Assembly: GCF_001186125.1 (NCBI RefSeq)
Contig: NW_014040452.1
Location: 14,424 to 78,423, forward strand
From: Sphaeroforma arctica JP610
Lineage: Eukaryota
DNA: 64,000 nucleotides
Reading direction: 5' to 3'
In this document: positions 691 to 56,510 of the stretch, in pieces
How the letters are laid out: each line of letters opens with the position of its first letter
How positions within the stretch are numbered: the stretch's first letter is position 1
The notes under the pieces: generated by a model
Told to the model about the DNA's origin: nothing
Databases searched by the model: none
What the model saw: the letters and a program-made list of their open reading frames with translations, nothing else
Position numbers and translations under genes: made by a program

Positions 691-3600
691 AGTGGTCGTG
701 GACGGTTCTGCGTTACTGCATCGCTTATTCTTCCAGCCAAGGAGCTCTACGCCAAGCAATTTGTGCGATTATGGGTGTACGCCGGATCTGTTGCACAAGC
801 GGACGATCAAGGTTGTGTCGGCTCTTGTGACGACGAATGCTCAAGTGTACGTGGTCATGGACGGGGTAAGTATTCAAAGGCATTGCGTGTGCGTGTGTGT
901 TTAACAGTTGTACCGTAGTAAGAGTGGTAATACATACACGAAGTCTACTCAATACGTGTGTGCAAAATGGGTATATACTTTTGCAATTAAAGTTGGAGGC
1001 ACCGCCACCATCTGGTATATAGTTTCTGGTTCCACCAATATGTGAAGGACGTATGCAAGCATCGTACTGGTGTATAGGGTACGAATGACGTTGTAGTACT
1101 TCCAGTAAGATGTTTGTACATGCTTGTGTCTATCATGTGAAAGCAGTGTATATCTCATGTTCCAAGCAACCAGAGTTTATCCCGAGGCCGCGAGTAATAT
1201 AAAAGCGGTTTTAACCGTAACCTTGTATATGCTATACCTAATTCTATATCCAGAAGTACCATGCAAGTTCTCGCCCCCAATATAACATTGACTGCATTCG
1301 CTGCAGCGAGTGTACTGATGCAGGTACACCTCGTGGTGCGGTTTAGTTCGGACCCCAATTGCTTTGCGATTCCTTATTGTCAGTATTTGTCATCACAGTG
1401 GTGTCTATTTTGATTTGACTGTTCATTCATTTCAGTCCGTGTTATAGTCTTGAACGATACTCAGTGTGCTTTGGTGATCAATCGATTGTGTACCTGCACT
1501 CTTTAATCAAGTTTGAGTCTATACTGTTTACGTAGTGGCGGAAACTTATCCATCTACTCATGCCTCTCCTATCTGACACTTCACAGATATCCCCCGTGTC
1601 GAAGGCCAAAGAAAGAGTCAAACGGAGCAACCACAAGCTACGGGATACCCTAGCGGTGGCTAACAAGGTGTCTTCGCGTCAAAGAGACGTCAATTTGAGC
1701 GCGTTTGCCAATTGTCGCGTGCTGCCGGTATGGGCCCGGCGAACGTTTGTGCAGACAATACTCTCACACTTTCCCGCCCAAGGACGAGTGTGTCCGTGCT
1801 GTAAAAAGGACGTCAATCCGACAACCAAGCACGACAAAGACACGACGGCAACGCCTGAGGTCAGGGCGTCATCAACAGAAACTCTTGCGCACCCTCAGCC
1901 TAAGTCCAAAGGGGAGAGAAATAAATACACGAAGTCTGCAAAGTCTGACATGAGCACACCTACCACCACCATCAATTGTGCCAGCACAGATACCTATTCA
2001 AAGGCAGATGGAAGGCCACACACCTTGAGGCGTACACACACCCGTGCCCGTGCATGCGGGAACATGCTCAGGTGCGACCAGAGCAGTGTGCGCGTGTACA
2101 TGGCAGACGGTGAAGCTGATGGACTTGTGGCCAGTGTGGCTATTGCGCTTGGCGCCGTAGTGCTCAGCAATGACAGTGACTTCTACATATACCCGGTCAT
2201 CAGTCATGGCTATGTGCCGCTGTCGACTCTGCAGATAGGTACGTTTGTGCTGCTACGCTTTTCATTTCAGTTGTTTATATAGGCACGTTGTATGGAATAT
2301 CTACTTTTCATTGAGCAGCAAGTAAGCCCATAGTGCTTAGCTATAATAGCGCAGCCGTAATAGCGACTTCTACATGTACTTAGTGTTTAGTTATGGTTGC
2401 ATGTCGCTTTCGACTCTGCAGGCAGGTAATTTTGTGTTGTAAGTCTTTGGTTCGTCTCTTACGTGTATAGACATAAGTATACATAAAAATAGCTGCGCTT
2501 TTAATTAGGCCGTTATAGTCGGTTATTATAGCGATATCTACATACACGCCGTGGTTTGTCATAGCAATGTGCCGTGATCGACTCTGCAGATACGTACGTT
2601 TGTGATGCATTTTTTTTTCGTCGGTTCGGTTATTTTATATATACGAGTGATGGGATAGTTTCTTTTCATGTGGGTGAGGTGTTCAGCAACATTAACTTTT
2701 ACATGAACTAGGTGGTCTAGAATAGCTAAGCACCGCTATCGACTCTGCAGAAATGTGATCTCGGCATGTTTTCCGAGGACGTATAATTGGCCAAACGTTT
2801 TATGTGTACTCTTGTATTGAAAGCGACTCAGGCTTGTTGTATTGTTATAGACCTTCGTAATTTCAAACGAACATTTCTGCGATATTGAGTCGAGACAGCA
2901 GTGGCACTTTTCGGGTTCATTTCGAGGTTTGCTTCAACATAATTCGAGGTTGATGGGGTGACTACGTGGTTTATGGTAGTGAAGTTGTTCGTATTGGTTG
3001 CGGCTTCTACTTACATCCATAACTCCTTACTGGCATTGATTGTGTATCTATATTTTATGTTGTTATTGGAGTTAGTAGATGTCACTTTTGGTATATATCC
3101 AATTGAATCATAGTATCGACAAGATGAGTGTTCGTTCTGAAATAGTTGCGTTGTATTGTCATTCTTATGACTCTCTGGCCCAATCAGCTGTAGGATAAGT
3201 ATGGGACATAGACATGAGTTTCAGTATATGCGCCTGCCCATCAGGCTACACCTCAGGGCTGCACTATAGATGACAGTTCCGCTAAATAGCATATGCGTAT
3301 CCTCGCCTAGTTTATTCACGTATACACACTTAAAACAAGTATATACCTGGTAACTAGTATGCTTGTATATATATATATATGTATATCGTTAAACAGCTAG
3401 TGACACTGATGGTAAGGTGCATGTCACCGGAGTTCAGTACTTTCCGCAAACGCTGGCGAAGCATCTTGGACTGGACTTGTCCGATCTCCCGCTTCTCGCA
3501 AGTATGTATTAGTCTATACCCAAAGGGGTATGTGCATGCGTGTTCTATGTATTTCTATGTATTTGAGTGCATGCCCATGCTGTGTGCAGATACTCGTATC

Positions 3601-13619: not shown

Positions 13620-13843
13620 CTAAGCTGGATGTTGTATCACATGTACTAAGACCAGTGTACAAAGTCTGGACCAGCAGTCAGCTGTCTAATTATATATGGT
13701 TCTGATTATTACAGGAGGGCAATAGCGGAGTACCATGTGTGTAATATGTCCAAAACTATACCATCAGTCCTGCCTAGTTCAGTCGGTGCAGAGCAGCGAT
13801 GGTCCTATGAGTCCAGGTCCTAATGCACTATATATTGCTACTG
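13620..13843 (+). repeat. 5' LTR-like copy (eroded ends)
   Basis: Aligns by eye to 22197-22405 with about 31 mismatches over ~200 aligned bases plus small gaps (~85%). Terminal TG/CA not preserved. Confidence 0.8.
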
Positions 13844-14778
13844 TAGTTAACCCCCCTCCTCCTCCTACTCCTCTTCCTCCTGCCCTCCCTGCCTCCCCTC
13901 ATCAGCTTCTGAAAAGGAGCGTGCCTCATCAACAAGCGTAAATATGAAAGATCACACATGACCTGTTTTGTGCAGATCCTATTCTAGTGATACACCAATA
14001 CATCGTGATGCACCAATACACGTTCCAAAATAATGCTTCTTATCGCCTGCGTTCCGTGGCCTTATCATCGGATGTCGTTTAGTACGGCCAATACATTGAT
14101 ACCTTTAACCTGCACTCGATACTCATTAATAAAGATAGCTGGCCCTACCAATTTTATCAACTTATGCACAGAGACTATCATAGGTGCATAGTATATCTCG
14201 TGCCAAATCTGGATCGTTGGTGCATCAATTCGGTACTTTGCTGATTTTTTCTTTTGCTACTACAGTAGCTGCTCATTGCGTACTGATCATTTCTGCTGCA
14301 TAGATACCGTGGGTTTGGCGCTCCAAGGGCTTTGCCGAGAATGGCTTTAACAGTTACATCCGTGTGATGGGAATAGATTACATAACCCCCGACTCAAGGG
14401 TATAGAAATTGTTATCAACTACAATCGAGTGTGTTTATTTATAGTTGGCAACAGAGCCTGGCACCATCTCCCACTACTAGTGGTGTAGGTAAGCACTAAG
14501 TGATTTTTTTGTAATGTCTTGGTAGCACGTACCAATACTTTCATCCTGTCATTATGCTTTTGCGAAGACACTGGGTGAATGTAGGTATCAAGTAGATCAA
14601 AGATGAATATACTGAATTTATCCATCACGTATGTTTGTGTATGTAGACCGTGGAAGGATATGTGTGTTACAGACAGTGACTGCGCGAAAGCTTGAGGTGT
14701 AAATAGACATATAGTTTTTGGTGTTTAACTGAATACTACGGGAATCGAGGTTTACTTTTTCGTCTATAGCTGTAGGCC

Positions 14779-16950
14779 GTGTATGTTACTATAGCAATAA
14801 GGTGCGACGGGAGCCATGTGTATTCAATTATATTCTCCACAAGAGACGATCACTGTCTAAAGAGGTTTGTCGGGTTTGCCGATGCGTTTAACCGCACCGT
14901 AGCCGAGGCACTTGTCTCCGACAATAATAGTCAGGACAATGCTTCGGATAAGGATGTAGCCACTCCGATTAAAGAGACTACTCCTACAGATAGAGCCCGA
15001 GAGCCAACTATTGCCTCAGCTTCGAAGCTCTCACTTACGAAGCCAAGAAGTGAGACAAGGGACACGTCTCAAGACGCCCCACCCAATTCTTCTGACGAAA
15101 CTCAGAAAGAAAAGTCCCCAATTATAGGGGACAAAGACGAGTCTCAGAAGGTAACTATACCGGAACCAGAAGAGGAGGCAAGCTCAAGTGGCAAACCCGA
15201 ATCTACGTCCGAGACCACTGAGCCAATGCGCATAAGTAAGTTAACTACTGAAAACACTGATCTTAAGAATCAGTTAGCCATCCCTATGAAAGGCATGACT
15301 GTTGAACATGTAGATCGAATGTATGGATCAGGAAAAAACGCAGATCACTTACGCGAGCATGTTTCTCCGGGCACTACTGAAACCTTACAGAAGTGGGCAG
15401 AACGTCGGCTGGCAATTACGCCCGAAAAGCGTAAGGACCTGAGCGCCAAACCTGTGGCAGATGACCCAAATGTGCTCAGCGTATCTATATCTTACGAGGT
15501 ACTACCACCAGAACTCCAGGCTAATTATTCGCCTGTTCTAACACCCGGACATGAGTCGCCTGTCCATGAGGGTATTATAGACCCAGGGGCAGGTAGAAAC
15601 ACTCCGCCACCTTTACCCAACTGGGATGACAATCGTCGGAAACCAGTTAAGATCATAATACCAACAACTATCCAAGGAACAGAGCACCGAAAGGCCTCGA
15701 CCATGAACTTTACACGGGGTAATAAACACTTCCGTAAACGTTTTAACGATGTCGAATTTACTCGCTTCGATCGCACCGCCTTACACCAACCCGGGAGGAT
15801 TTTCACTCTGACGAGGTGACCGAACTTAATAAATCGGTCGACGATTACACCATTAAGATGGAAATCGCCCATGGCGAGCACCATGCCGAGGACATATCAT
15901 ATTTTGCTAATATGATCGCGATCAAGCAGAAACGTATCGATCAGCTACTTCAGGCCCAACGTGGACAAGACCACCGGGATAACCAGAAGTACACGGGACA
16001 GATCAGTCGACTTAAGTCAAACTGGGATGCCAAGTAGGTCGCTTTTATAAACAACCATGACCTCGACACGCTAACCCGTACGCTTAATGTGTTTACGGTC
16101 ATGCTGGAGACGAATGCTATCGCTCCCCAGCAATGAATTTCTGCTTTAATGCAGTTGTTTGACCCTACAGGAACAAGTCACTTGATCCTGCAGCGACACC
16201 AGCATGAACTAGACACTTGTCGTGACTGGCCAGCTGTGTGTTGATTGGTTACGTCCTTATTAAGCAAGGACATGCGCAGTCCAGGACTGAGTTCAATCTT
16301 AAATGAACCAGTTGAGAATACTCCTATTCGGAGTTACATTCTGAAACTTGATGCTGACCTTAAACGTCCAGATATAACAAAGGACAATGCTCAGCGATGG
16401 TACGAGTTCCTGGTTATGCATGTTTTCTGTCAGAACACAGGGAACAAGTCTTTACACCGAGTTGCGACGTAAGTACGCAACTGAGGCTCGAGACAAGGGA
16501 CATGAAACAAAGTTTCATCTATCCCGACTTACGTGGGAACAGTTTTATGACACTGTATCCACCTTTTCCCCGCACACCGAGTAACCTCGTAGGGAAAGGC
16601 GGTAAATAAGACACCGTGCGAGCTCCCTGATCAAGGATACCTCTCACGCCAGACATCATATGATAAGCCTCATCAGACGCGTCCTAATTAGACACGAGCT
16701 CGCGACTCTACTTAATCAACGCGACCCGATAAACGGGCACGCGCAGAGGCGAAGGACAAGGAACTTCCATTTAAGGATATTAAGAAAAGTGCCGACGCAC
16801 AGTGTGGGTATGACATGTACCAATTGACCCCTAACGGTTATTGGAACGGAAGACATGCACCCATCTGTACACACTTTCTTACTAAGTGTGACAAGTGTGA
16901 GAAGACCAATGGCTATCACGATAAGTCTTGCGACACGAAGCCCGACATTA
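14779..16950 (+). pseudogene. Gypsy gag-like region (disrupted)
   Basis: 346-aa low-complexity ORF 14779-15819, coiled-coil-like ORF 15816-16037, broken helical segments, and Cys/His knuckle-like motifs near 16810-16935 (CDKCEKTNGYHDKSC) just before the protease. Confidence 0.6.
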
Positions 16951-17029
16951 AGTTGGAGTGAAAGTACTACCAGGTACAATCGATACAAAGAAGATACAAC
17001 GACTCCTTAGATGAGCGTGAAATAATCCC

Positions 17030-19070
17030 TGTATATTGCAACGGAAATAAAGCCCTTGCATTGATTGATCCTGGTTCAGAAATTTCATGCATATCCGACC
17101 ACTTTGCATTGATGAAAGACATTGAAAGGCGAACTCAAACCACTCACCTAATTTTAGCAGATGATAAAACTTCTAAGTGTGATACCATGGCCACAAATGA
17201 TAAAATCTCCCTGGCCGATGATAGAAATATCACGACTCAAGCTGTGATCGTTAAGATGTCACAGAAGTACGACACTATAGTCGGAATGAGCGATTTGCTC
17301 ACGTTAGTGATAACCGTAACATGCTTACCCAACAACATAGATCCATTCAAGGATCAGTCAGACGATAATTGTCTAAAACCATATACACCACCATCGGACA
17401 CAGTCAAAGAATTAATTCCTGGCTTTGCCGATAAGATAATGGATCATATATTAGTAAATAAGAAGATAAAATTAACCGACTGGGCGAAATTTCTCTTCAA
17501 CGACGGATACGTCAGCCTTGACTTAATCAAGGTAGAATTTACTAAGCTCAAATGTCCTTCAAGAAACTATGTTTCTTAGAGACACGAAGCTGTAGTTAAA
17601 GAACAAGTCGAGAAATGGTTATCCGATGGGGTAATCGAAATCAATTACCAACAAACGCCAGTTAACTTAGTATTATTGGCAGTTGATCAACACAACTCTG
17701 ATGGAACATTTACGAAAGTCAGAGTATGTCTAGATATGAGCCCAATAAATAAATTATTGCAGACTCATAGTTTCCATTTCCCTCGTATAAACGAGTTACG
17801 GTGTTTACATCCATAGACCTAACACAGGGGATCATCAAATGCAAATTTATGAACCCCATCGTAAGTACTTTAGTTTTACCTGGAAAGGTAAACAATATAG
17901 GGTTGCACTCCTTACCAGCATTCTTCCAACAAGTAGCGGAGAAAATATTTGCAGGCATGCCTAACGTAAAAATCTACATTGATGACATAGTCACCATTTC
18001 AAAGACTGATGCTAAATATGCTAGTAAGTAGATTCCTTCAGAGACTCGACGAACAAAACTTCAAGATAAACGAGAGGAAATGTCACTTCGATATAAGCGA
18101 GATATAACTTTCAAGTTATCGCATGTCCGGAAAAGGTATTAAATTCAACCCAGAAAAGGTTGAATATTCCTTAGATTGACGAACACCAACTATTGGGTGA
18201 GATGACAATAGCATGTGTGGGCTTGTAAACTTCCTTCAGGTTAAACACCTTACTTAGCAGAATACTTGAAATTTTGCGGACACTTAAGATGTCACAAAGG
18301 TAAGATAGGAGAGCTATGGACTGAGAAGTGCGATGAGGCATTGAAAACGCTCAAACACGCCGTTTGACAATCTTCTGTAGTACAAGGGCCAGTCGATGGC
18401 ATATCATTCAAAATAGCAACAGACGCCTCCGAAATAGCACTTGGAGAAGTACTATATCATGATATCGACAATAAACCTAGATATGCACAAATATTTATTC
18501 GAGCTATGAATGCATCACAGTTGAATTACCCAACTGTTAAACAAGAATTACTAGCTATTGCTACAGCTATACATACTTTAGAGATTACGCCGTAGAGATA
18601 TTTTACTCTTTAATATATGAGAAAGATAAAGTCAGACCCTCAGTTACTGAGTAGATGGTATGACATAATATCCAAGTTCCCCTTCGATATAAGACATTTT
18701 CCTGGAATACAGAACCATTTACCGGATATGTGATCCAGGTTCGTACCAGACTATAATAAGTCAGTACGAGAGCTCTTGGCCACCGATTAAAAGTGTAATA
18801 CACGATGGTTCGAGCTGGCTCAAAAGATATTTGGGCCACATACAATCGATATTTTTGCTGCAAATCATAATGCACAACCTATAGACGATATGACATTAAA
18901 CTATCCTTTAGGTTCTTGCAAGCAGGAGGTAAGAATATGACGTTTATTGGGCTGTATCCCACTTAAAAACACTACCGCGGCCCGGTCTGCGAAGCCTGTA
19001 ATATAGATTGACCGCCAGAAAGGATCAAAAGATTGGAAACCAACTCTTAAAGGTTCAATGGAGGTGGTCT
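17030..19070 (+). pseudogene. Gypsy pol (protease, RT, RNase H, Dam-like MTase N-terminus; integrase core deleted)
   Basis: LIDPGSEISCIS at 17061 (aspartic protease); FTSIDLTQG ~17805; YIDD 17975-17986; ATDASEIALGEVL ~18416; YPTVKQELLAI ~18527; RWYDII..F.IRHFPGIQNHLPDM*SR ~18655-18739. Confidence 0.85.
18785..18880 (+). pseudogene. N-terminal remnant of a Dam-like N6-adenine DNA methyltransferase in Gypsy pol
   Basis: In frame with RNase H: D*KCNTRWFELAQKIFGPHTIDIFAANHNAQP, matching the DIRS/phage MT pattern DW.L...F..L...(W/F)GP.TIDLFAS..N.Q. Confidence 0.7.
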
Positions 19071-22000
19071 ATCGAACAATTTTTGAGTTCGCTATACAAG
19101 ATTAGATGTGTTATAGTTTCTTCACGTCCGAAAAACACCACCGCGACGTCAAACAAAATAGCAAATTGACATTTCAGAGGCTGCAACTAAATTTTCATAG
19201 CAATGCATGTATATCAGTGACAAGGACAGAGAGAATACTCTGGCGTAGTTGACATTTGTGCGCCAAATTTACATGGTCCTGATATACTTTTGAGGCCATA
19301 ATTAATCGCGACCATGTTGTCCATGTAATACTGCATGTCATGATGCTCGTTCTCCACAAACTCTTGGAGGCAACGTAGTTGATACTTAGTTGATAAATCT
19401 TGTCATCTGCATCCATATACGCTACTTCTTCGAATCAGGGTACAAGAGCAGTTGATAGTAGAAAGCTGCAAGATCACATACTGACTGTACCCAGAATGTC
19501 CAGCCGTGTCGCTGTCGAGGGGTAGAACATAGGGAAGCATTTACATCGTCTTATTTGTAAGGGTTTAGTTCGTTGGCATGCAATAGGCTTTCGCATGAAC
19601 TGGCTGCTTTCGGGAAATTTTCCACAGTATGCAAATTTGTCTGGCCCACTTGCCGTATTCATCCCATTTCGCTGATACCCCAGACACATTAGAGCTCGGT
19701 GTTAAACTTTTTTCGTTTTCGCCGATTAGAGAAATGGATCCCTTGTGCGGTATACACGGCAAAGAAGTTGGGCTCTTTCTTTAATTTTTGCTTCACACCC
19801 ACATCATTCATATATTTTAGGTGCTTCTCATCAAATGAAGGAATGCCGGTGCATTGGTCAAATCCACAATTACATTCAGCTTCTCGCAAAGTCGTATCCG
19901 GTTCATTATTTGGTAACTGGGCCCCAAAGACTAAAGAATTTCCTATGGTCACACCTTTCACATTTTTTTGGAATACAGTCGGATATAAGTCCACAACGTT
20001 AGTTCCCAAATAGATTGCCGACGCATTGTCCACTAGAACACGTCGAAGTAATGTAATATATGCCTGTTGCGAGAGTGTTGCTGTCACATATTCTCCAAAA
20101 CCTTCGACAGTTTAAGGTTTCAGCAAATGTGTGACTCCTCATTGCTGGGTTTGTATATTACGGTATACACTTAACAGGTCTAAGCCATTCTCGGACCACA
20201 TCTCCCTTGGTATATCCATACATAGAACTGACGTGTATGTTGCTGGGTTAACAATGATTAGGGGATGCCGCAGCAGCCACAACCAAGCTCGGGCAGTTTG
20301 TAAAGAGTGCCCCGTCTACGTATAAGTAAAACACATAAGGCAGAGCTTATCTTTGTGTCGCAAGCGGAACTCAGTACAAGTTAATTTGTTGTTCTGTTAA
20401 CCTCTGTATTGTTCACGTTACTTAGAGCGTCGATGTTGGCCGTGGCAGTTATCAGTCATGTCTTGTTGATGTTATTGGTAATCAATCGATTGGCAGCACC
20501 CATGACTATGCCAGTTTTAGTTCCGTGAGTCAGGCTACGGTCTTGGCCAAGTATAAGCTGTTGTCGTGGTGGGGCTATATCAGCAGCTCTGTGTAGGCTG
20601 TTGATATAAAAGCACGCTGTGCTATGTGCAACTCATCCAGCTGATTCCACAGTTAAGGAAGATTCTTGTTGAAGACTGCAAATAGTGCCTCTCGGAGCTC
20701 AATTGTTGTCAGAGGACACATCGCTTGGTACTTAAATCAGCCTTATTCTCTGGATCCACTGCAATGTCAAAGTCAATGTACTCCTATTCGACCCAGACAA
20801 TGATGTCTTGTTAGGGATAATATTCTCTTGTTAGGTCGTTTGTAAAGGAAACACACTCGGTGATGCCATCCGAGACTGCCCAACACGTATAACAAATGTT
20901 GAAAATACTTGACCATCGATAACAGGCAGTCTGCCACGGGGAAACCAGCAGATACGCTAAGGAAATAGATGAATTTGCTTTGATCTTGGGGTCGCCGGAG
21001 TTGGAGTTCTGTTCGTGAATACAAACTCATCATTGTAGATTTACACTTTATCACTGAGGCTGCGTACGACTATGGGTCCACGCAGCTGCCAGCCAATACC
21101 TCTTTGGGAACATTACAGACGGCCCACCAATTTGTAGCGAGTCTAGTGTATCTGTAACCGACTGCAGCTGGAGATCTATAAAGTTTAAATACGTACACAT
21201 TATGCATACCAAGAGGTGCTTCAATACCAGTACAATGTGCAAGGTCCACATTGTGTGTGCTCCATTAGTCAGCTACCTCAAGCCCTATATGAGGGATGAC
21301 TATTGTGGCATGCTGTTGCATATTTCCTAGACCTGGTGGGTGTTTGTACACGTCATTCCTGCCCTTAATATGAGCCGGTATAGCGGCAACAATGCTACTT
21401 TTTCCTATTGTTCAAATCCCATCGCTGGCGTCGCTGGTTAGGACAATCTTCCTGGGTTTCTGTGGCAGCACGTTTTCGAGGTTGTAGGTACCGAACATCA
21501 GGGAGTATTTCCCTCTCAGCGTCTGGAAAGAAAAGAGGCGTGGGTCTAACGCAGTCTGACTGGACGTGGGCTGCTGTTCGAATTGAAACGATTCATGAGC
21601 TCGTTTTGCGTCAGCTGCTTGGGCAAACAGGCTCCTCCACATTCCCGACGAAGTGGGACTATTCTTTTCTTAGATGTTAACATGGCATCCACTCGGGAGC
21701 GCTGACAATACCCTATATTTCGAGATGAAGATAAGCCATGGAGTATTCATGGAAATTCGCATAATGCTCGGGCTTGGTATGGCGAGCAGCGCTATCGTAT
21801 TTTGCAATCAGCCAACGCTCTACAGCATTCTCTGCTCTCCCCGATGCCATAAGCCTGATTCGAATCAGCATAAGTAGATGTGTCACCTTTGCTGCCTCGG
21901 ACGGCAATCGCGTATACTATTTTTATTTTTTGTATTTCAGCCCCCCACTCACGAATAAAGGGGATGATCAAACGGTTGCGGCGACCATAGTACATTGATG

Positions 22001-22159
22001 CTGTTTACACCATACTGTCTATGTCTTTCATTATACGTGTGATCACTATTGTGGTTCGTATTGTAAGAAAACATATTGAATTATTGTGTGTGTGTTGAAA
22101 TCAAATCTAACTTGGATTGATCCCTATTATAGCGGTTAAGATAAAGAGGACTAGAGCTT

Positions 22160-22412
22160 TGTTGTAATAGACTGGACATCGTTTAGTATAGATTAGCTAA
22201 GCTAGATGTTCTGTCACATAAGACTAGTGTGCAAAGACTGGACTATCAGTCAGCTGTCTATTTCTATATAGTTCTGATTATTCCAGGGCCATAGCGAAGT
22301 ACCATATGTGCTATATGACCTAAACTATACTAACAGTCTTGTCTAGCCCAGTCGGTGCAGGGCAGCGATAGTCCTACGAGTTCAGGCCTGGTGCACTACT
22401 GCTACTACAACA
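22160..22412 (+). repeat. 3' LTR of the Gypsy element (253 bp)
   Basis: Starts TGTTGTAATAG and ends CTACTACAACA (terminal inverted repeat, TG...CA). Preceded by a purine-rich tract AAGATAAAGAGGA at ~22138-22150. Confidence 0.85.
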
Positions 22413-44394: not shown

Positions 44395-47300
44395 ATGTCA
44401 GATTCAACTCAACCAAAAGGGGTCCTCATACCCCGATCTACTTTCACAAACTTCGATTCCGCCACAAGATTTCGCACAGACTTCTTCCTTCGCCTTGACG
44501 CTTATCAATCCATCACCCACGCCAACCAGCACCTCCACCTACTCAACAAAACTCTTGACCACATCCTTGACCCCGACAACCACCCACCAGTGCATCCCAT
44601 CACTATATACCTCGCAGCACATGCTGCTTTCTCAGACCTCGCAACCACGCGTGCGATCGCTGAACGGAATGACGCGCATGCTACACACACTACTGAATAC
44701 AACACTCTTAGTGCCACTACTGACGAACACGAGGTCACCATCTACGTCCTCAAAGAAGAAAAGGACTCCTTACTCGACAAATTCAAGGAGGCTCGTGCAC
44801 AGCGTGATGCCAACTTTACCTCCAACCTCGAAGAAATCCTCGAACATCTCCAGCAGTCAAGGACATTCTCATCACCAAACTCGAAAGCGCCCGCAAGGAA
44901 CGCGACGACACCCAAACCAACCTCACTGCCTGCATCGCCGATCGCAACTCACTGAACGAACAGCTTGGTCACTTTCACGCATCCCCTCACCCCGACACAT
45001 CCGATCTCGCCGCCGACAACAAGCGCCTTCACAAAATCCACGATGATTCCGTCGCCAAAGCCACCGCCCACACTTACACTATCTCTGAACTCCGTGTCGC
45101 CAATATCCAGCTCGAAGCCACCATCTCCTCTCTCCGAAACGAACACGATGAACTCCTCACTGCCACTCTCCCCGAAATGGTTACCATACAGGCATTCCTC
45201 CACATCGCCCACACAGACATCGCGCAACTCAAAACACAACTCGACAAAGCACGCTCCCAGCCCGTCGTCACCGACTCCACCACCCTTCGTCACCGTCTCC
45301 TTCTTGCCGAGCAAAACCTTCGCCGTATGGCCGGTCCTCAGACACCACCGATTACTTCACCCCCATACTCCCCCTTCGGTACCTCTCACACTCAATCCAC
45401 GCAACAGCTCCACAACCTCCCTGCCTCCCGCACCGGCACTGCCAACGCCTTCAAATACAATGGCACATATGCAGCCACCAAGCTCACGAGAGATAAAAAC
45501 TTCACTAATTGGCACAGACAGTTCAGATATACGATGAAGAAGCACGACGTCCTCCACACCCTGCACCCCAACACTACTGCCGATGATGCCGAGCTCACCG
45601 TCGGCACTACGATTCTCTTTGAATCCCTTGGCCCCGGCCTCTCCGAGCAATACGACACATGTCTCGACCAACCCCCGAGTTTTTTCTATCAACGTATCTG
45701 CCAAGATTTTAACTCCGTCACGATTGGCCGCATTTGGGAACTCTTAGTGTAACCCCTCACGCTTCCACAACAACCCTCCTTAGACGACAGCGTCGCTAAG
45801 GTATCTCTGCTCAGGGACCAACTCAAAGGCCTCAATACCACCATGCCTAAATACTAACACATCTGCTCCCTCCTTCAATCCCTGCCAGACAGCTTCCAGC
45901 TCATCGCACAGGATATCATGGCCACTACCGACATCAATGCCTCAATGCCAGTGCAGTACTCAATAGCTCCTCTCTCTATGGCGTAGTCAGTACTCGCTTT
46001 CAATCACGTGGTCATGGCACCGATACCCCCAGGCGCCCACCCATTGGCATAAACTCTACCACCGGTAACTGCGCCGCCTATACACAACCTGGCCACAATG
46101 CATATGAGTGTCCCAACACTACCTGCCGCCGATGTGGTAGCAAAGACCACAAAGGGAATACCTGCACCACCACAGGCAAACTCACATGCGACCATTGTAG
46201 ACACTCCACCGGCCACACGACTGCAGCGTGTATTCGCGGCAAATGCAACTCATCTACCACTGCCACCAACTGAGATGCCAGGGTAACGCGCGCCACCCAC
46301 CCCAACCTCTCCTCCAATACCACCCTCCCAACCCACTATACTGTGCAATCTCTCACTCTGCGCGCAAAGCCCCGCACCGATACCGCCTTCATCGACTCAG
46401 GGACAGATATCTCCATCGTCACCTCCACCGATCACCTCACCGACCTTCAGTCCGGCACATATATTATTGAACTGGCTGGCGGCTCTACTACCACCACATA
46501 CACACGCGGTACCATCCCTGGCATCGGCCCTGCCTTCGTGCTACCCACCGCTGCCCATCAATCTATCCTCTCCGTCCGCAACCTCCAACGCAATGGCTAT
46601 ACAGTCACTTTCCCCGAGATCAACACACCCAATAATCCCGGCGAGTGTCACATCACCTACGGAACTGACACCATTCAGATCGTCACCGAAGCCGCCGGTC
46701 GCTACATACTCAACGCCTTCCAAGCTGAGAACCTCACGCTTCGGACACCAGTCCACACGCGCCACCAAAGCTATGGCTATTGCTAACAACCTCCCCATCA
46801 AACCGCCAATAGCCTACTGCAACGATTACCAACTCGCACCCGATCTCTTCGAAGACCACGTCCAAAAACCCTTCGGTCTCATCGACATCGACTTGTTTGC
46901 ATCCAAACATAACAAGCAAGTACCCGCTTACTGTACTGAAGACTACATCGACAAAGTCACGCCCTACCACGATACATATAAACAAAACTAGCACCAACCC
47001 AACAAGAAGCTCTACGGCAATCAACCATGGAAGAACTTCTTCAAAAGCTGTCGCAAACTCGACAAAGACGCCGGCCGGGTCATCATGGTCTTCCTGTGAA
47101 ACCGCGCGCCTCCTGGTGGACACAACTCATGGACCACCTCCAACCTCACGTCGAAAGTATCACATCATCGCCCAACACCTTCATCCGCCGTGGCTCCGAT
47201 GGCTCTCAAGAGTTCGTTACCAATCCACCTTGGCTCTACACTGGTGTCGCTCTTTTCGGACCCACCAAATACGCAGTCCCCATTTCCGCCGGCCTCCAAA

Positions 47301-50300
47301 CCGCCATTGACATCTTTATCCTCCACTCCGGCAAACCTGAATGCACTTGCACCTCCTGCGCGAGAGGCAAGATGCGCAAGAAAGCCACTAGCAACAAGCC
47401 CCGTTCTCTTCCCGACATAGGCTCCGAATGGCAAGTCGACCTTGAAGGGAAATTCGAAGAAAGCTACGGGGGCCACGCCTATACTATCCGCTACTTTGAA
47501 CGTACTTCTGGTCTCGAATACGAGGAAAACCTCAAGCACAAAAACGACGCCGCTGCCACCCTTGACCGCTTTTACACCTGGATTGAGAACATAGGCCGCC
47601 GTCGCATACGCACTGTTATTGCCGACCGCGGTGGTGAGTTCATTTCCGCCGAATTCAAACGAGTGAACCATCTACATCATGCACAAATCCTATACAACGG
47701 TACTGACGACTCTGCCCAACACGGCGGCGTTGAACGTGGTCTCCAGGCAAATAAGAAGACTGCTCTCTGCCTCATCGCCCAATGCAAGCAACTCAGACAC
47801 ATGTGGGCGGAAGCTAAGTCTCACGCCACCCACCTACACAATATCTCTCCTCGTGACACCAACCCCGGCCGTGCCAGCCCCTACGAGCACTTCTTCGGCC
47901 GTACACTCACCGCCCACGTGCACGCATTACGAGTATATGGCTGTATTACCATGTTTATCGACCATGGTAACAAAGATAAGCTCCGTGAACAAGTTTGCTT
48001 CGGCGTTCTCCTTGCTCGCGATCTCTTCTCCAGAAACCCTGAAGAATACCGCATGCTCAACACCGCCACAGGCCTAGTCATCACCACACGTCACGTAACA
48101 TTCAACGAAGGAATCTTCCCACTTTGGAAATCACACGGGTCCAAATCCCGCCCATATTTCACCGAGGACCAAATCTCCAAGGTTAACACATATCGTGACA
48201 CTCTCCCATCACTCCCCACGGATCCACAAAGCGAATCCACTGACCCCGAGCCCACGCTCACTCACGAGCCGCTCACCACACCCAGTTCACACACAGAGGA
48301 CATGCCCTCCACCAACCCCATTTCAGCAACCTCCGACAACCCTGTATCCCCTGATCTCCATGAGCGCCTCCAAGCCGCCACTCAGCGTGTCGCTCGCTCC
48401 ACAAAGTCAACACCTACTGCACGGCAAGCGGACAAGGCACACATTAGCACTGACGCACACCACACACAACAACCTGCCAAAGCCGCCCAACTCGACCGTG
48501 CTGCTCAGGAACAAGCATGCATCCTCGGCAACGCATACAATGACAGGCTACAACAACACATCCGTAAACGTCCCAACTCCCGTGAACTACGCAACCTTCT
48601 CATCGACACATGTGACAACACACATCACACCGGCATACCTGCCATTACGTCCAACCCTCCTCCACTCACGCGGAAAGTACGTAAGCATGTCTACAGTGTG
48701 TGCGAATCTATACAAAACTCACCAATCACCCCTACTACCATCAACCAAGCACTGAAATCCCCTGAAGCTGACCTCTGGCGCGCGGCCATTCAACGCGAGC
48801 TTGACAGCCTCCACAGTACCGGCACAAACGTCCTTTGTGATGCCACTGACCTCCCACCTGACGTACTTACCGTCACATCTAAGTGGGTCTTCAAGATCAA
48901 GATGATCAATGGCGTCATCGACAAGTACATGGCTCGGCTAGTCGCTCGCGGATCCACACAAACCAAGGACGTCAACTTCACGGAAACCTACGCACCCACC
49001 TGCACTCACGACAATCTCCGCACACTCCTCGCTATTGCCGCCAACCAGGGCTGGCACACAAAGCAGATGGATGTCAACATCGCATTTCTTCACGCTGATC
49101 TCGACCACCCGATCTACATGAAAGCTCCATCGGGCCCCGCACAAATCGGCCTTGTCCCTTCCAAAATCCTCGAACTCAAAAAGTCCCTGTACGGGCTCAA
49201 GCAGTCCGGCAAGCTCTGTTTCTCACTGATCAAATCCAAACTTCTCTTCTTCGGCTTCACCCAAGCCCACACTGACAGATGCCTCTTTCACATCCGCACC
49301 CCCACATATAACTGCACAGTGCTTATATATTTCGACGACCTCATTATCTGCGGCTTTACCCAAAAAGATGTGGACAAATTCAAGCGACAACTCCTTGCCG
49401 TCTTCGACTGTTCCATACTCGGAGAGCCCGCCTAGCTATTAGGTTGTCGTATCGTCACCAACGACATATCCACTAGCGTTGTCCAGACCTCCTACATCGA
49501 CGAGGCCGTCCAACACTTCGGCCTTGAGTCTGCCCACGCCGTCCACACGCCCCTCCCTGCAACTACCCTTTCCGCCCACCATGGCCCGCCCTTCCCCTGC
49601 GCGTACCGCGAACTCGTCGGCACTCTCCTCTACCTATCCATCCTCGTCCGTATTGACATCACCTTCGCCGTGAACACTCTTTCGCGATTCCTCAATAACC
49701 CCAGCGAGGACCGCTGGAACGTAGCATGCAGAGTCCTACGCTACCTCAAAACACACCCAACACTCGGACTCACATACACAAAGTGTCCACAACCCCTTTC
49801 CACCGACGCATACACAGACTCAGACTATGCTAGTTGCCCTGACACACGTCGATCAACGACAGGCTACGTCATCCGTGTTTGCAACACACCCGTTATCTGG
49901 AAAAGCAGGCAACAGAAAACAGTCAGTACCAAGCCCGCTGAGGCAGAGTACTTTGCCACCAGTGAGGCCGCCAAACACATACAGTGGCTGCGTAACTTCC
50001 TGTCCGAACTCAACCTCGCATCTGACAGCCCGACCACACTCTTCTATTGCGATAACAAGTCTGCTGTCCACGTAATTACCAACACGGGCACGCCAAAACA
50101 ACTAAAACACATCGACATCCGTGTGCAAAATATCCGCGATCTGCAGGAACAAGGCGTGATTGACACCAAATACGTCGCCACTTCCGATTACATCGCAGAC
50201 TATCTCACCAAAAGCCTGCCACGCCCCGCACACAGTAAACATACCAGTTCGACGCTTACCCCGGTGCAAGATCCCGACGCTCGTGCCGATGCCACACCTA

Positions 50301-50401
50301 CCACCAACCTCATCGCAGCCTTTTCTCACTCCAGCGAATTCGAACACACACATATGGCTAACACTATCTTTCGAGTTTGTTTCCTACATGAAGCTAACTA
50401 G
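44395..50401 (+). pseudogene. Copia gag-pol polyprotein (disrupted)
   Basis: Gag NFTNWHRQFRYTMKKHDVL (~45498); knuckles CAAYTQPGHNAYEC and CRRCGSKDHKGNTC (~46069-46165); PR FIDSGTDISI (~46388); IN RFGH (46737), CTSC (47348-47359), WQVDLEG, ADRGGEF, GGVER; RT SKWVFKIK, LVARG, LKKSLYGLKQ, IYFDDL; RH YTDSDYA, AEAEY, CDNKSA, KHIDIR, ADYLTK. Confidence 0.92.
46824..47265 (+). pseudogene. Dam-like DNA N6-adenine methyltransferase domain inside Copia pol
   Basis: Reconstruction across one stop (46989-46991) and one frameshift (~47090): DYQLAPDLFEDHVQKPFGLIDIDLFASKHNKQVPAYCT..HDTYKQN*HQPNKKLYGNQPWKNFFKSCRKLDKDAGRVIMV/LPVKPRASWWTQLMDHL..TFIRRG..NPPWLYTGVALF. Confidence 0.8.
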
Positions 50402-50561
50402 ATCCAGGAGAGTTACACACATGGTCCAACTTCCCGACTTTCTATCACAACACACCACATTGGCACCAAATCCAGTGAGAGGAGAGCCATCCATCTCATA
50501 CTTCCGAACCCAACCTCGCTTCACATCGCACGCGCTTCACACCACATTTGGTTTTCAAATT

Positions 50562-50569
50562 CAGGAGAG
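50562..50569 (+). other. Polypurine tract of the Copia element
   Basis: CAGGAGAG directly before the 3' LTR TG. Confidence 0.65.
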
Positions 50570-50741
50570 TGTTGGAGCAAATTTAAAACCCAAACTAACC
50601 CTAGAGATATTTGGTGTCAGAGTGTCAAAGTGTCATGTTGAGCAAATACAGCATGGTACACACGCCGTAGAATATTGTGAATATGTACATATTAGACCTA
50701 CAATATGATAACAAACTTACTTGTAAATATATGTTCTAACA
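50570..50741 (+). repeat. Copia 3' LTR
   Basis: Direct repeat of 44120-44291. Confidence 0.95.
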
Positions 50742-52499: not shown

Positions 52500-55400
52500 T
52501 CGATTGGAATCAATCCTGCTGCTTTTGATATGCAGTCAACACCTGTCGTAATGTTTCATTGGACCCGACATACAACATAGATTAGCAATTAAAATTTGCA
52601 TTAACGTTTGTTCTATCGATATTGTTTCTGACTGACAGATACACACTTACTTAGCCCTCGCAATTGAGTGGTTTGCTGTGAACAGTAGGCGCATGATAGA
52701 AGTTACATTCAGAAATTTGATTGTCCTTTTAATACACTCTGCTGTCATTAATCCACAGCTGATTTGATCTAAATTATAGCTCGTTAAGAATGATAAAATT
52801 CAAGGTAGATATTCGAACATGTTTCGTCCCTATCTGCCATTGATGTGATGCCGGTTCTATTCAGCATTTACGCTCACCCATAGCAGATGTAAATACTGAA
52901 AATCGATTAGCGTGTGCGTACATCAATTTGCATTATTTTTTTGGATTTGCAGCCGCATCTTTCCAACACAGATTAGCAATTAAAACTCGCATTAGAGCCC
53001 GTTCTATTGGAGTTGTTTTTCTTCTTCTTATAATTGAATGGTTTGCTGTGAACAGTAATCGCATGACAACAGATACAGACAGAAATGGGACTAAAGCTCC
53101 TCGAGTAGATCTGATATCATACATCACGACGTCTCACAGGTAAGGAAGGCTCGCCGCCAATACTACTATCGACTTGTTAGGAGAGATATTCTCATGACGG
53201 ACCGAGACAAGCCTCTCATGCAAGCTTTACCCCTTGCCGTGAACATACCCAAATCCGCCTTTGTGACATGGTAGCAACCAACACGTTCCTGTTCAAATTG
53301 CTTGACTATCGTACTATTGGATGTCTCTGTTCAGTGTGTCCCGGAGATAAGACTTTTGCTTCCAGTCACTTTACTTGTATCAGTATCAAAATGAGGCGTA
53401 TTCTGGCGGGCCCTAACCTACCGCCAATTTGACGGACTCACTACAACAGCTACATAATAGAATCGGCAAAGCTACCACGACATCTGGGTTCTCTGCGAAC
53501 ATCTCGGGAGTTTCCTTCTCCATGAACAGCTGGCACCAATATACCCTCATCCAATATTGGTCAATAGTTTGATGTCACATCTTGGCACAATACTCTGCTG
53601 AAGTAATATTTCCAGATTTCAGTACAGACTCATATTCTTGACTTGTGATACCGCCTTTGATACTTCCCGATGAGACTATCCAGTATATTTCAAATGCATC
53701 AGTTGTGTGGCGTGATATCGGGCAGCCTCCAACTTTGCTCCGAAGCAGAATTCGTTCAAAAATACTCAGACTAGCTCAGCTCAGATTACCACAACGAAAG
53801 TGGGCCAGCTTTATTCCACACAGTGGTACCTGATTTTTAGCTTCCCCCAATGGTGGAAGTATTCTGTATCAATCGTCGTGAATGAACACGCCGTATGTCC
53901 TCTATTGTTGCGTCACTCACCCCGAGCTCCTCTCAGCAGTTCGACAATCTTAACTTCCCTTCAATCTTCCCAGAACGTCTACAACGAATATGAAGTCTGA
54001 TGTGAATGCTACAACGAATAGGAAGCCTGATGTGAATGTAGACATAACTAAAGGGTTTTAGGGTTTTAATAGATTTATCCCTACTATACTCTCCTGTCAT
54101 TGATCCGCAACCGACTAGATCCAAATCCTGGCTGCGCCATTGGTAAGAATAATAAAAAATCAAGCTATATGCCATCGGTGTGATACCGGTTCTATTCATC
54201 AGATGCATATGTGATTTACGCTCATATCATTGCAGATGTGAATAATGAAAATTGATTACCATGTGTGTCTGCATTGATATGAATTTGTAACCTTTCGATT
54301 TACAGCCGACAGGTTTCAACACAAGGCCCTCTTTGAACCCGATAGACAACGCAATAAAAGTCCTATAAAAGCATAGCAGCTTTCCCAATGGTATTGCTAC
54401 TATTCGACAGATTTTCACCAACCACGATGTTATTCTCCGACTTGGACGGTTTAGTTTAGGCTTTTAAAAATGTACAACAATAGGAAAACGCATAAACACG
54501 ATGTCTTTCTCTATATTTCTACTGTCAAATACCGGTTCTGATCAACAGATGCATATATAGTATACGCTTCCTTCATTGCAGTTGTCAACAATGAAAAATA
54601 ATGAATGTTTGTGGATATGAATTTGCAACCTTTCAATTTGCAACCTACAAGCTTCAACACAAGGCCACTTGGACCTGGTAAACAACATGATAACGCTTAT
54701 GTGAGAGTGTCATAACATTTCCAACGGTGTTGCTACAATTTTTGAGATTTTCACTTACCACGACGCTACTCTTCGACTTGAACGGTTTGGTTAAGACTTT
54801 TGAAAATGTACAACAATAGAAAAATATACAATCGAGTCGTCTTCCCCTACATGTTGATACCAATTCAAGGTAATTCTGCGTCGCATTGTGTCATGGCATC
54901 ATTTTATTATAGCATCGTCATTATAATGGTAAATTAAAATTCCGAGGTATAGCTGTTCTTCCTTGTTTGCAGTCCAAATCAACAACGAAAAGTTCATGTT
55001 GTGCCTGGTAACCAGCACATTGTAGCAATAGATATGCCAGCTTCACGTGCGGATTCTTGAGTGCTACGGGTCCCAACCCGCTATTGCATACCTGTCTGAA
55101 TATTATCCATCCACCTGAATTATTGGATTCGAACCCTAAAGAGAATACAGGAATCAAAAGTGAATGAACAAATTTGAAGAACTAAAAAAGAGGTTCGGAG
55201 TCGGGGGGTGGATTTGAACATATGATTTTATATTTGCTGCCGACAACACTGAACTCATAGCCTCTTTGGACCCAGTGAGTAGCGATAAACGACTCTATAA
55301 CAGCATCACAGTCCATTGCTAGTTGTGTTGCGTCTCATCTACAGATACGCACATACTTGGCACTCATTCCCCAACTTAATTTTAGTAATTTGTAATTAAT

Positions 55401-55900
55401 ATACAATATAGCTATACATTGATGGAACCCAACTTAATACATCTACAATGTAGCTGTGTCTGGGACCTCGATGTATCAGACATACTATGTCTTTATTTAC
55501 AGTCAATATCGATAACGCAAGGGCAATGTTGTACCCGGTAATCAACACGATATAACTTTCATGACGGTTTCACATTCCATTACATTAGTGCTAAGGGTCT
55601 TTTGATCCCCTAGGTGGGATTCACTTTGAATCCTAGCCCGACCACTTGACTGATTTGATTCGAGCCCTAAAGGGTAAAGACTTCCAGCCGATTCGGGTGT
55701 CGATTGGAACTTGCAGCAATTTATTATGCAGATGAAACCTTTCAAAGCAAGGCCTCCATGGACCCGGTACATATTGTAGTCTAGCACAACAAAATTGCAA
55801 CCGATTATTATTACTATAACTTCTAACTCGCAGATGCAATTCTTACTTGAACGGTTTCTTTCAGGGCATAAGAGTGTAAAATTATTAGAACGAAGTAAAC
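52500..55900. repeat. Dispersed array of a degenerate ~300-400 bp unit
   Basis: CCGGTTCT..TCA..GCAG.TGT.AA.A.TGAAAA at ~52851, ~54186 and ~54532. AGATTAGCAATTAAAA..GGTTTGCTGTGAACAGTA..CGCATGA at ~52579-52697 and ~52970-53066. The 54186-54500 and 54532-54845 units align closely. Confidence 0.7.
53300..53870 (-). pseudogene. Possible decayed sulfotransferase (heparan-sulfate-type) remnant
   Basis: Ordered fragments in different frames: IGGS*KSGTT (~53851-53822), LFMEKETPEMF (~53529-53497), GPARIR (~53413-53396), LRDTLNR (~53346-53326). Confidence 0.35.
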
Positions 55901-55958
55901 CAACAGTATTCCTTAGGCAAACTTAAGGACCTCAATCGCCTGTCGAATAAATCTGATT

Positions 55959-56510
55959 TTTACTGTGCAGTTTATATGTGCCGCATCCTAAAGCATTGGT
56001 AGAAAATATCTGATTTTCAAGGTTAAGATACAAATATAGGTTTTATTGGCAATCGAAATCACCAAGGGGATGCTCAAATTGTACAAGGTATCCAGTACAG
56101 TGAAACATACATTTGATTGCATCACAGCCCGTTTTTGGAGCCGTATGCTCTCAACAAAAAAGCTTACTCACTCCGTTCCTACCCTTCAAGCTGAAGGGGC
56201 TCATAACTTTTATTGCAGTGTTTACGATTGAATCTACTTTTGCTGCGCAGTTTAACTGTGCTGCATCCTTAAAGCATTGGTAGAAACGATATGATTTTAT
56301 AGGCTGAGATAAAAATATAAGTTCTATTGACAGTTGATATCACCAAGGAGATGCCCAAATTGTACCAGATAAACAGTACAGTAAAACATACATTTGACTG
56401 CATCACAGCCCGTTTTTGGTGGCGTATGCTCTCAGCAAAATAATGCTTGCTCACTCCGTCCCTACCCTTCAAGCTGAAGGGGCTCATAACAGTAATTGCA
56501 GTGTTTAATG
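55959..56510. repeat. Tandem duplication of a ~285 bp unit
   Basis: GCATCCT(T)AAAGCATTGGTAGAAA...ACATACATTTGA.TGCATCACAGCCCGTTTTTGG...CTACCCTTCAAGCTGAAGGGGCTCATAAC at ~55959-56225 and ~56240-56510. Confidence 0.9.

What the first reader, a model, noticed from the sequence alone, without database searches (positions are those of the whole stretch)
46737..47360. Ty1/Copia retrotransposon with a Dam-like N6-adenine DNA methyltransferase inserted into its integrase zinc finger
Seen: between the integrase His motif (RFGH, 46737-46748) and its CxxC (CTSC-ARGK, 47348-47359) lie ~150 extra codons. They read DYQL.PDLF...FGLIDIDLFASKHNKQVPAYC (DLFAS 46890-46904), then D.YKQN* (TAG where W is expected), then LYGNQPW (NQPW 47019-47030, one base from NPPW), then K..D...VIMV/LP....SWW..L, then a terminal NPPW (47222-47233). 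Established: this motif series is the signature of the phage Dam-like MT domain known from DIRS tyrosine-recombinase retroelements; canonical Copia pol has no such domain. Inference: a Copia lineage captured an adenine MTase physically linked to integrase. It could methylate its own cDNA or integration site, perhaps mimicking the 6mA active-gene mark reported in several unicellular eukaryotes or evading silencing. This copy is probably dead (stop, frameshift, NQPW), but ~94% LTR identity suggests intact relatives may exist.
Basis: partly seen in the sequence, partly recalled or inferred. Interest (0 to 1): 0.92.

Follow-up and report, generated by a model that had tools for sequence, protein, structure and literature searches.

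The report
Methyltransferase inside a Copia integrase finger
A broken Copia-type jumping gene of the protist Sphaeroforma arctica carries a Dam-like adenine-methyltransferase domain between the two halves of its integrase zinc-finger motif, a layout shared by related copies and not found in print for Copia, which would likely let the element mark or bind the DNA it inserts.

Summary
The window has a dead Ty1/Copia element (LTRs 44120-44291 and 50570-50741, order PR-IN-RT-RH, RVT_2 E 1e-39). A ~146-codon domain of the DIRS-type Dam/PCIF1-like N6-adenine methyltransferase family lies between the HxxxxH and CxxC halves of the integrase motif.

It is not a one-off nested fragment. Two sister sequence types carry it without this copy's three local lesions. 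Two divergent S. arctica proteins have it too, one between its own HxxxxH and integrase core. Substitutions are biased to synonymous (19 of 37), and the domain is better conserved than the flanking protease and integrase.

Two corrections: NQPW is the catalytic-position motif and the family's normal state (NIPF in a relative), not decay; the terminal NPPW is not the catalytic motif.

A May 2026 preprint already describes Dam-carrying LTR elements, including in S. arctica, but only Gypsy-like ones; Copia is absent from its main text. This is therefore a new variant: a Copia carrier, the domain inside the integrase N-terminal motif, and a non-canonical motif IV. Activity and substrate are untested. 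The nearest solved fold is the RNA cap methyltransferase PCIF1.

The parts
44120..44291 (+). 5' LTR (TG...CA), preceded by AAGTG
44292..44300 (+). candidate primer-binding site GGTTATGGG; resembles the half-tRNA-iMet site of copia (recalled, not confirmed by a call)
   Evidence: sequence; literature search uninformative
44395..46273 (+). gag, broken by frame changes and stops; three CCHC-like knuckles at 46070-46231
   Evidence: weak DUF4219 E 0.058
46376..46733 (+). aspartic protease (DSG at 46394-46402)
   Evidence: 35% identical to the start of P0004
46734..46748 (+). His half of the integrase HHCC motif; this copy lacks 14 nt here and so lacks the first His (HARFGH in sister P0002)
   Evidence: gag_pre-integrs on P0002 214-256, E 0.064
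46821..47090 (+). N-terminal part of the Dam/PCIF1-like methyltransferase: DYQL, IDLFAS (cofactor-loop position), in-frame stop at 46989, motif IV NQPW at 47019-47030
47093..47260 (+). C-terminal part of the methyltransferase, in the next frame after a 1-nt deletion near 47090; holds the non-catalytic NPPW at 47222-47233
47261..47341 (+). linker, predicted helical in the relative P0005, between methyltransferase and Cys pair
47342..47359 (+). Cys half of the integrase HHCC motif (CTCTSC)
47429..48150 (+). integrase catalytic core, D,D(35)E intact, followed by a retroviral SH3-like domain
48752..49810 (+). Copia-type reverse transcriptase (RVT_2; YFDD at 49328), interrupted by a stop at 49433-49435
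49811..50230 (+). RNase H (YTDSD, AEAEY, YCDN, ADYLTK)
   Evidence: RVT_3 E 0.0055
50570..50741 (+). 3' LTR, preceded by a short purine tract and followed by AAATG

Best explanation
A Copia lineage of Sphaeroforma carries a DIRS-type N6-adenine methyltransferase-fold domain between the His and Cys halves of its integrase zinc-finger motif, where it likely stays part of the mature integrase and would methylate adenines in the element's own cDNA or flanking target DNA, seeding the host's transcription-permissive 6mA mark. SHOWN: the architecture, its presence in three sequence types of this family and in a divergent Copia family, purifying selection, the fold (on the relative P0005), and the retained motif-IV Asn and aromatic residue. 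INFERRED: (1) the insert cannot be cut out without splitting the HH..CC motif, so it travels with integrase into the particle and pre-integration complex; (2) N-[Q/I]-P-[W/F] is still catalytic; (3) the substrate is DNA or the RNA:DNA hybrid; (4) host AMT1 then maintains the mark, as the 2026 preprint proposes for Gypsy DAM-LTRs. I put the anatomy at about 0.95; the confidence below is for the whole mechanism. The window copy itself is dead.
For: Profile match of 54 bits against a shuffle maximum of 5.4. The two halves hit profile positions 7-93 and 89-126 in successive frames. All 30 Atlas feature hits of P0005 carry Pfam Dam. AF2 model pLDDT 80.6, best matches PCIF1 Z 9.8 / rmsd 3.1 / 135 aligned, T4 Dam Z 8.0 / 2.8 / 110, EcoDam Z 7.9 / 3.1 / 116. 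Sisters keep frame at the three lesions of this copy. 19 of 37 substitutions are synonymous, p 5.5e-4 at kappa 3, pN/pS 0.25. The N-terminal half is 51% identical between the window and P0004, versus 35% for protease and 39% for integrase core. The motif-IV Asn is kept in the window, P0002, P0004 and P0005, whereas 109 of 119 DIRS-type homologues have FPPF. An active-enzyme precedent for a non-Pro second residue is the KsgA/ErmC' motif (A/S/N)(L/I/V)P(Y/F) (PMC3814359, passages). The host has ApT 6mA, and its Gypsy DAM-LTRs are more often methylated and more expressed (preprint).
Against: Motif IV fails the canonical [DNSH]PP[YFW] pattern (PMC4738411), and Gln at position 2 fits neither that pattern nor the KsgA/Erm one. 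No retroelement DAM has shown activity: the preprint's E. coli assay was negative. The best solved match is an RNA cap methyltransferase, and PMC4738411 places DIRS domains with PCIF1 and calls them likely inactive. This copy sits next to a decayed RVT_1 relic rather than at an evident gene start (one site only). No 6mA data could be examined. The selection test pools three close sequence types, whose variants were phased only by contig depth.
Confidence: 0.45

Rival explanations
1. The domain is a pseudo-enzyme kept as a binding module. It would grip a flipped or methylated adenine, or a host partner, and tether the integration complex to 6mA-marked open chromatin, much as a chromodomain does for chromoviruses.
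For: Motif IV is non-canonical in every Copia member seen. 109 of 119 homologues lack the catalytic polar residue yet are conserved. Negative assay in the preprint and the inactivity argument in PMC4738411. Fusion to integrase suits a targeting role.
Against: The Copia lineage keeps exactly the Asn and aromatic residue that catalysis needs across deeply diverged families. The one insertion site seen lies in a decayed element, not at an evident promoter.
Confidence: 0.27
2. The domain is an active RNA methyltransferase in the manner of PCIF1/CAPAM or KsgA/Erm. It would modify the element's genomic RNA (cap-adjacent A) or the primer tRNA inside the particle.
For: PCIF1 is the top VIA match, 1.7 Z above the next row, and has the highest query TM-score (0.58) among the listed Foldseek rows. 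Homologues hit the PCIF1 Pfam family weakly. NIPF in P0005 fits the RNA dimethylase motif of KsgA/ErmC'. It would explain the lack of 6mA on E. coli DNA.
Against: By sequence features the nearest families are phage Dam. The domain lacks the rest of PCIF1 (166 against 482 residues in the solved chain). Fusion to integrase is not needed for RNA work. NQPW does not fit the KsgA motif.
Confidence: 0.2
3. The zinc finger is not split but rebuilt or lost. The old CxxC decayed to CNDY at the start of the insert, the domain was added behind it, and the downstream CTCTSC is a duplicated or non-functional Cys pair.
For: The Pfam gag_pre-integrs alignment on P0002 runs to profile position 65 of 67 across YCNDYQLAP, the place of the canonical Cys pair.
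Against: DYQL is also the first motif of the methyltransferase. P0004 has no Cys there. A full CxxC-x3-K follows the insert directly before the catalytic core. This reading concerns geometry only and is compatible with the explanations above.
Confidence: 0.2
4. The insert is a one-off nested fragment of a DIRS or Gypsy element with no function.
For: This copy is broken within the insert, and a Dam relic of a Gypsy element lies in the same window.
Against: Shared by sister sequence types in runs of four studies and by a family with only 35-39% identical protease and integrase. Synonymous bias. Codon usage like the rest of pol, GC3 0.60-0.64 against 0.58-0.66. The four Copia-type domains form one group on a long branch, SH-aLRT 96 in a quick tree.
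Confidence: 0.02

Closest known systems
DAM-LTR retrotransposons, ichthyosporean lineage (Fernandez-Moreno et al., bioRxiv 10.64898/2026.05.21.726589; whole main text read; supplements closed)
   Same: LTR retrotransposon with a DIRS-type Dam domain in pol, in the same species, with the same proposed 6mA logic.
   Different: All LTR lineages there are Ty3/Gypsy-like and were classed with RVT_1; copia, Ty1, RVT_2 and PF07727 occur 0 times in the main text. Here the carrier is Copia, the domain lies inside the integrase HH..CC motif, motif IV is N[QI]P[WF] rather than Asn-Pro-Pro, and the Pfam Dam E-values (0.001-0.02) miss their 1e-5 screen.
MT (Dam-like) domain of DIRS1-type tyrosine-recombinase retroelements (PMC3783388, passages; locus L001)
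   Same: Same domain family by profile, predicted fold and motif order; nearest database relatives.
   Different: In DIRS the domain ends the RT-RH polyprotein (109 of 119 homologues within 80 residues of the C-terminus) and mostly has FPPF. Here it is internal to a DDE integrase and keeps the Asn.
PCIF1/CAPAM cap-specific adenosine N6-methyltransferase (PDB 6IRX)
   Same: Best solved structural match, Z 9.8, rmsd 3.1, 135 aligned; PMC4738411 puts DIRS domains in its clade (passages).
   Different: 11% identity; only the core fold is shared; no WW-domain hit; motif IV differs.
Phage Dam family PF05869 / phrog_111; T4 Dam and EcoDam
   Same: Weak profile hits on the N-terminal half, Atlas feature hits, fold Z about 8.
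   Different: Below Pfam's curated cut-off (at most 19.2 against 28.1 bits); non-canonical motif IV; embedded in a polyprotein.

Membership tests
Ty1/Copia LTR retrotransposon | Direct LTRs with TG...CA ends and a target-site duplication | tested here: met
   172-nt LTRs, 94% identical; flanks match at 4 of 5 bases
Ty1/Copia LTR retrotransposon | pol order protease-integrase-RT-RNase H | tested here: met
Ty1/Copia LTR retrotransposon | Copia-type RT (RVT_2, not RVT_1) | tested here: met
   136.9 bits against cut-off 31.6; no RVT_1 hit listed
Ty1/Copia LTR retrotransposon | RT phylogeny inside Ty1/Copia | not tested
   no reference Copia RTs were fetched
Integrase N-terminal HHCC zinc finger | HxxxxH and CxxC motifs ahead of a D,D(35)E core | tested here: met
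   HARFGH in P0002 and HDRLGH in P0004 (first His deleted in the window copy); CTCTSC and D,D(35)E in the window
Integrase N-terminal HHCC zinc finger | Both halves bind one zinc across the insert | not testable with these tools
DIRS-type Dam/PCIF1-like MT domain | Profile match over the whole domain with motifs in order | tested here: met
   54 bits, profile positions 7-127 of 167
DIRS-type Dam/PCIF1-like MT domain | Rossmann N6-methyltransferase fold | tested here: met
   on the relative P0005 (34% and 32% identical to the two window halves), not on the window protein
Catalytically canonical N6-adenine methyltransferase | [DNSH]PP[YFW] at the end of strand 4 | tested here: not met
   NQPW (window family), NIPF (P0005)
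Catalytically canonical N6-adenine methyltransferase | Methyl transfer to adenine in DNA | not testable with these tools
   needs an assay or modification-called reads
Pfam Dam PF05869 | Score above the curated cut-off of 28.1 bits | tested here: not met
   12-15.9 bits for window pieces, 16.9 for P0002, 18.9 for P0004, 19.2 for P0005
DAM-LTR of the 2026 preprint | Ty3/Gypsy-like RT and organisation | tested here: not met
   RVT_2, integrase before RT
DAM-LTR of the 2026 preprint | Raised 6mA and expression on the copies | not testable with these tools
   only contigs could be laid
KsgA/ErmC'-type RNA dimethylase motif | (A/S/N)(L/I/V)P(Y/F) at motif IV | tested here: inconclusive
   fits P0005 (NIPF), not the window family (NQPW)

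The most novel reading that the evidence does not exclude
An old Copia lineage has built an active N6-adenine methyltransferase, with its own N[QI]P[WF] active site, into the zinc finger of integrase. The intasome itself then writes an adenine mark on the DNA it integrates and each new copy starts in open, expressed chromatin. If the KsgA-like motif behaves as in rRNA dimethylases, the product might even be N6,N6-dimethyladenine.
Probability: 0.3. Interest if true: 0.85.

Novelty: new variant of a known kind. Interest (0 to 1): 0.6.

Why it matters
It extends Dam capture to the other great LTR superfamily. It does so in a species where Gypsy elements have the domain too, which strengthens the case that 6mA-using hosts select for it. 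The position gives a concrete handle on the open question of what these domains do: one lodged inside integrase should act at the cDNA or integration step. It also shows that Pfam-threshold, RVT_1-based screens miss such elements, so the preprint's 'DAM-lacking LTR' control set in S. arctica may include carriers (inference). Public 6mA Nanopore data for this species (GEO GSE331346, named in the preprint) make the first test cheap.

Tried and rejected
No whole genome was held for the window, so copy number, flanks of other copies and whole-pol integrity of the sisters were not examined.

A word-index search with the second half plus CxxC found nothing among 449-1430 aa proteins. Viral contigs gave nothing, and phage tblastn gave only E >= 0.6. 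None of the 119 homologues matched the window's Copia protease, integrase core, RT or RNase H. So no Copia-Dam outside S. arctica was found, which is weak evidence of absence.

PDB sequence searches gave only spurious hits: REV1 BRCT E 0.02, eIF3L E 0.05. The Atlas search on the P0002 half-domain was inconclusive. NCBIfam gave no methyltransferase hit.

The careful tree did not finish in two runs; only the quick tree is cited, and the donor (DIRS or Gypsy) is unresolved. No S. arctica Gypsy or DIRS domain was in it, and the 32-residue Gypsy relic was left out as too short.

No RNA holder was listed on record among the runs; expression was not assessed. ApT content of the element is unremarkable, 0.98 against 1.04-1.06. 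The PBS literature search was uninformative.

Literature searches for a Copia with a Dam domain listed none. The library lacks most subscription papers and the preprint's supplements were closed.
Full report
Element and host. The finding lies in a 6.6-kb LTR element, 44120-50741. Its 172-nt LTRs run TG...CA, are 94% identical and are flanked by AAGTG and AAATG. It codes gag, protease, integrase (D,D(35)E intact), RT and RNase H in that order, and the RT scores 136.9 bits on RVT_2 with no RVT_1 hit, so it is Ty1/Copia by order and profile; no RT tree was built. The gene model SARC_02379 of Sphaeroforma arctica JP610 (P0003) is identical to the window's frame over the insert, which names the host. 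The copy is dead: gag is broken, the RT has a stop at 49433, and the insert region has three lesions.

The observation. From the second His to the Cys pair there are 599 nt. Pfam Dam hits only the first half and weakly (E 0.011; phrog_111 E 0.002). A full-library HMMER search with the window and P0002 returned 6 proteins at E <= 0.001: four from S. arctica, a chromodomain-Dam protein (P0006) and an unnamed protein with a PCIF1-family hit (P0007). An alignment of these found 148 longer homologues, 120 listed. Of the 119 kept after removing S. arctica rows, 99 carry a DIRS-type RT and none matches the window's Copia enzymes. A profile of these 119 matches the window's first frame at positions 7-93 and the next frame at 89-126. 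It scores the X-read-through domain at 54 bits against a maximum of 5.4 over 2000 shuffles, and ranks this place first among 1612 six-frame pieces of the window. The homologues were gathered with a query that held window sequence, so this is not a blind test.

Fold. No intact copy of this family was available, so the natural S. arctica protein P0005 served as proxy; it is 34% and 32% identical to the two halves. All 30 of its Atlas feature hits carry Pfam Dam, and its structural neighbours include RT-Dam polyproteins. The AlphaFold2 model (101 sequences, pLDDT 80.6) matches SAM-dependent methyltransferases throughout. VIA ranks zebrafish PCIF1/CAPAM first (Z 9.8, rmsd 3.1, 135 aligned), then an archaeal putative RNA methyltransferase (8.1), T4 Dam (8.0) and EcoDam (7.9). 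Foldseek's lowest E-values were to the methyltransferase-like part of alphavirus nsP2, with PCIF1 fourth but highest in query TM-score. The fold is thus established; the substrate is not.

A family trait. Contigs from four runs of four studies each show three sequence types at similar depth: the window's and two others. The other two have 14 more nucleotides at 46734, giving the full HxxxxH in frame with protease as in P0002 (SARC_01068, on another contig). They also read Trp at the window's stop and have one more base near 47090. One sister has its own stop right after NQP; the other shows no stop among the listed differences. Phase was assigned by contig depth, no contig spans the stretch, 4 of 44 rows were not shown, and depth is not a copy number. 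Of 37 substitutions in 46870-47250 (three rows that only re-place the indel were dropped), 19 are synonymous against 21-27% expected (p 3e-5 to 1.5e-3; pN/pS 0.25). P0004 (SARC_07328) is a distant Copia family with the order protease tail, HDRLGH, methyltransferase, integrase core. Its methyltransferase half is 51% identical to the window's, more than its protease (35%) or core (39%). The insert's codon usage equals that of the rest of pol. In a quick tree the four Copia-type domains group together on a long branch (SH-aLRT 96; two rows are half domains; unrooted), next to Asn-bearing homologues; the donor is unresolved. The capture is therefore old and retained.

Corrections on motifs. NQPW aligns with NPPF of P0006 and is motif IV. 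The terminal NPPW aligns with EPPW before the last strand and is not catalytic. NQP is present in the window, in P0002 and in the third type (no difference listed at those codons), and P0005 has NIPF. The lineage signature is N-[Q/I]-P-[W/F]: the Asn and aromatic residue are kept and the first Pro is replaced. By contrast 109 of 119 homologues have FPPF and 5 have NPP[FW]. PMC4738411 (passages) gives the canonical motif as [DNSH]PP[YFW], with the middle residues acting through a backbone carbonyl, groups DIRS domains with PCIF1 and calls them likely inactive. PMC3814359 (passages) gives (A/S/N)(L/I/V)P(Y/F) for the active dimethylases KsgA and ErmC'. Activity is thus plausible but open.

Geometry. 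The HHCC finger marks the integrase N-terminal domain and serves multimerisation (PMC8487063, passages). Here the His pair is followed by 23 residues, the methyltransferase, a linker of about 27 residues (helical in the P0005 model) and CTCTSC. The first residues of the insert, CNDY, also fall where Pfam's gag_pre-integrs profile expects the Cys pair (weak hit, E 0.064), so a rebuilt rather than a split finger cannot be excluded. Whether the halves share a zinc is untested.

Mechanism. Because the domain lies within the integrase N-terminal motif, I infer that it stays on mature integrase and reaches the cDNA and the target site. The most likely role (0.45) is writing adenine methylation there, to be maintained by host AMT1. 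Rivals are a non-catalytic tether (0.27) and an RNA methyltransferase (0.2). A nested fragment is excluded (0.02).

Prior art. The bioRxiv preprint 10.64898/2026.05.21.726589 (whole main text) reports Dam domains in DIRS and in five LTR lineages, four of them Ty3/Gypsy-like and one mixed Euglena group, including an S. arctica lineage. It finds raised 6mA and expression on them and no activity in E. coli. Its screen used E 1e-5 and RVT_1, and copia, Ty1, RVT_2 and PCIF1 do not occur in its main text; its supplements were closed and could list these proteins among orphan domains. PMC5890265 (passages) and PMC6338049 (passages) name no Copia carrier of a Dam domain, and six searches (listings only, apart from the papers named here) listed none. 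Earlier notes of this scan list Gypsy and LINE carriers of Dam and Copia carriers of C5 methyltransferases (8 of 207 and 8 of 44 shown), and none for Copia with Dam; these are unchecked leads.

Verdict. Real, conserved, and a new variant of a recently described kind: to my searches the first Copia carrier, with the domain inside the integrase motif and an unusual active-site motif. It is known so far from one species and has no functional data. Interest 0.6.

Noticed in passing
window 13647-22386 (+), Dam relic at about 18782-18877: A decayed Ty3/Gypsy element (repeat pair 83-87% alike; protease and RNase H by Pfam) has a 32-residue remnant of a Dam-like domain right after RNase H (E 0.006 in the whole-window control). 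It is probably a relic of the preprint's ichthyosporean Gypsy DAM-LTR, so both kinds of carrier would lie 25 kb apart.
   Followed up: partly
window 43278-44108 (+): The Copia copy is inserted next to or within a decayed RVT_1-type element, probably non-LTR (RVT_1 E 2.5e-4).
   Followed up: partly
P0004 (SARC_07328), P0005 (SARC_02258): Two further S. arctica gene models belong to divergent families with the same domain. P0004 has HDRLGH, half the domain and an integrase core; its model appears to skip the rest. P0005 has the whole domain with NIPF and a C-terminal linker like the window's; that it lies in a Copia is inferred, its DNA was not seen.
   Followed up: partly
window 46815-46841: YCNDYQLAP reads both as a degenerate CxxC at the canonical zinc-finger position and as the first motif of the methyltransferase; it may mark the capture junction.
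   Followed up: partly
window 2154-2756, 27664-27879, 54276-56507: Diverged direct repeats: a 68-100 nt unit every 161-187 nt, a 27-nt tandem array, and 170-340 nt duplications.
   Followed up: no
window 33800-39600: Long TA/TATG microsatellites around assembly gaps.
   Followed up: no
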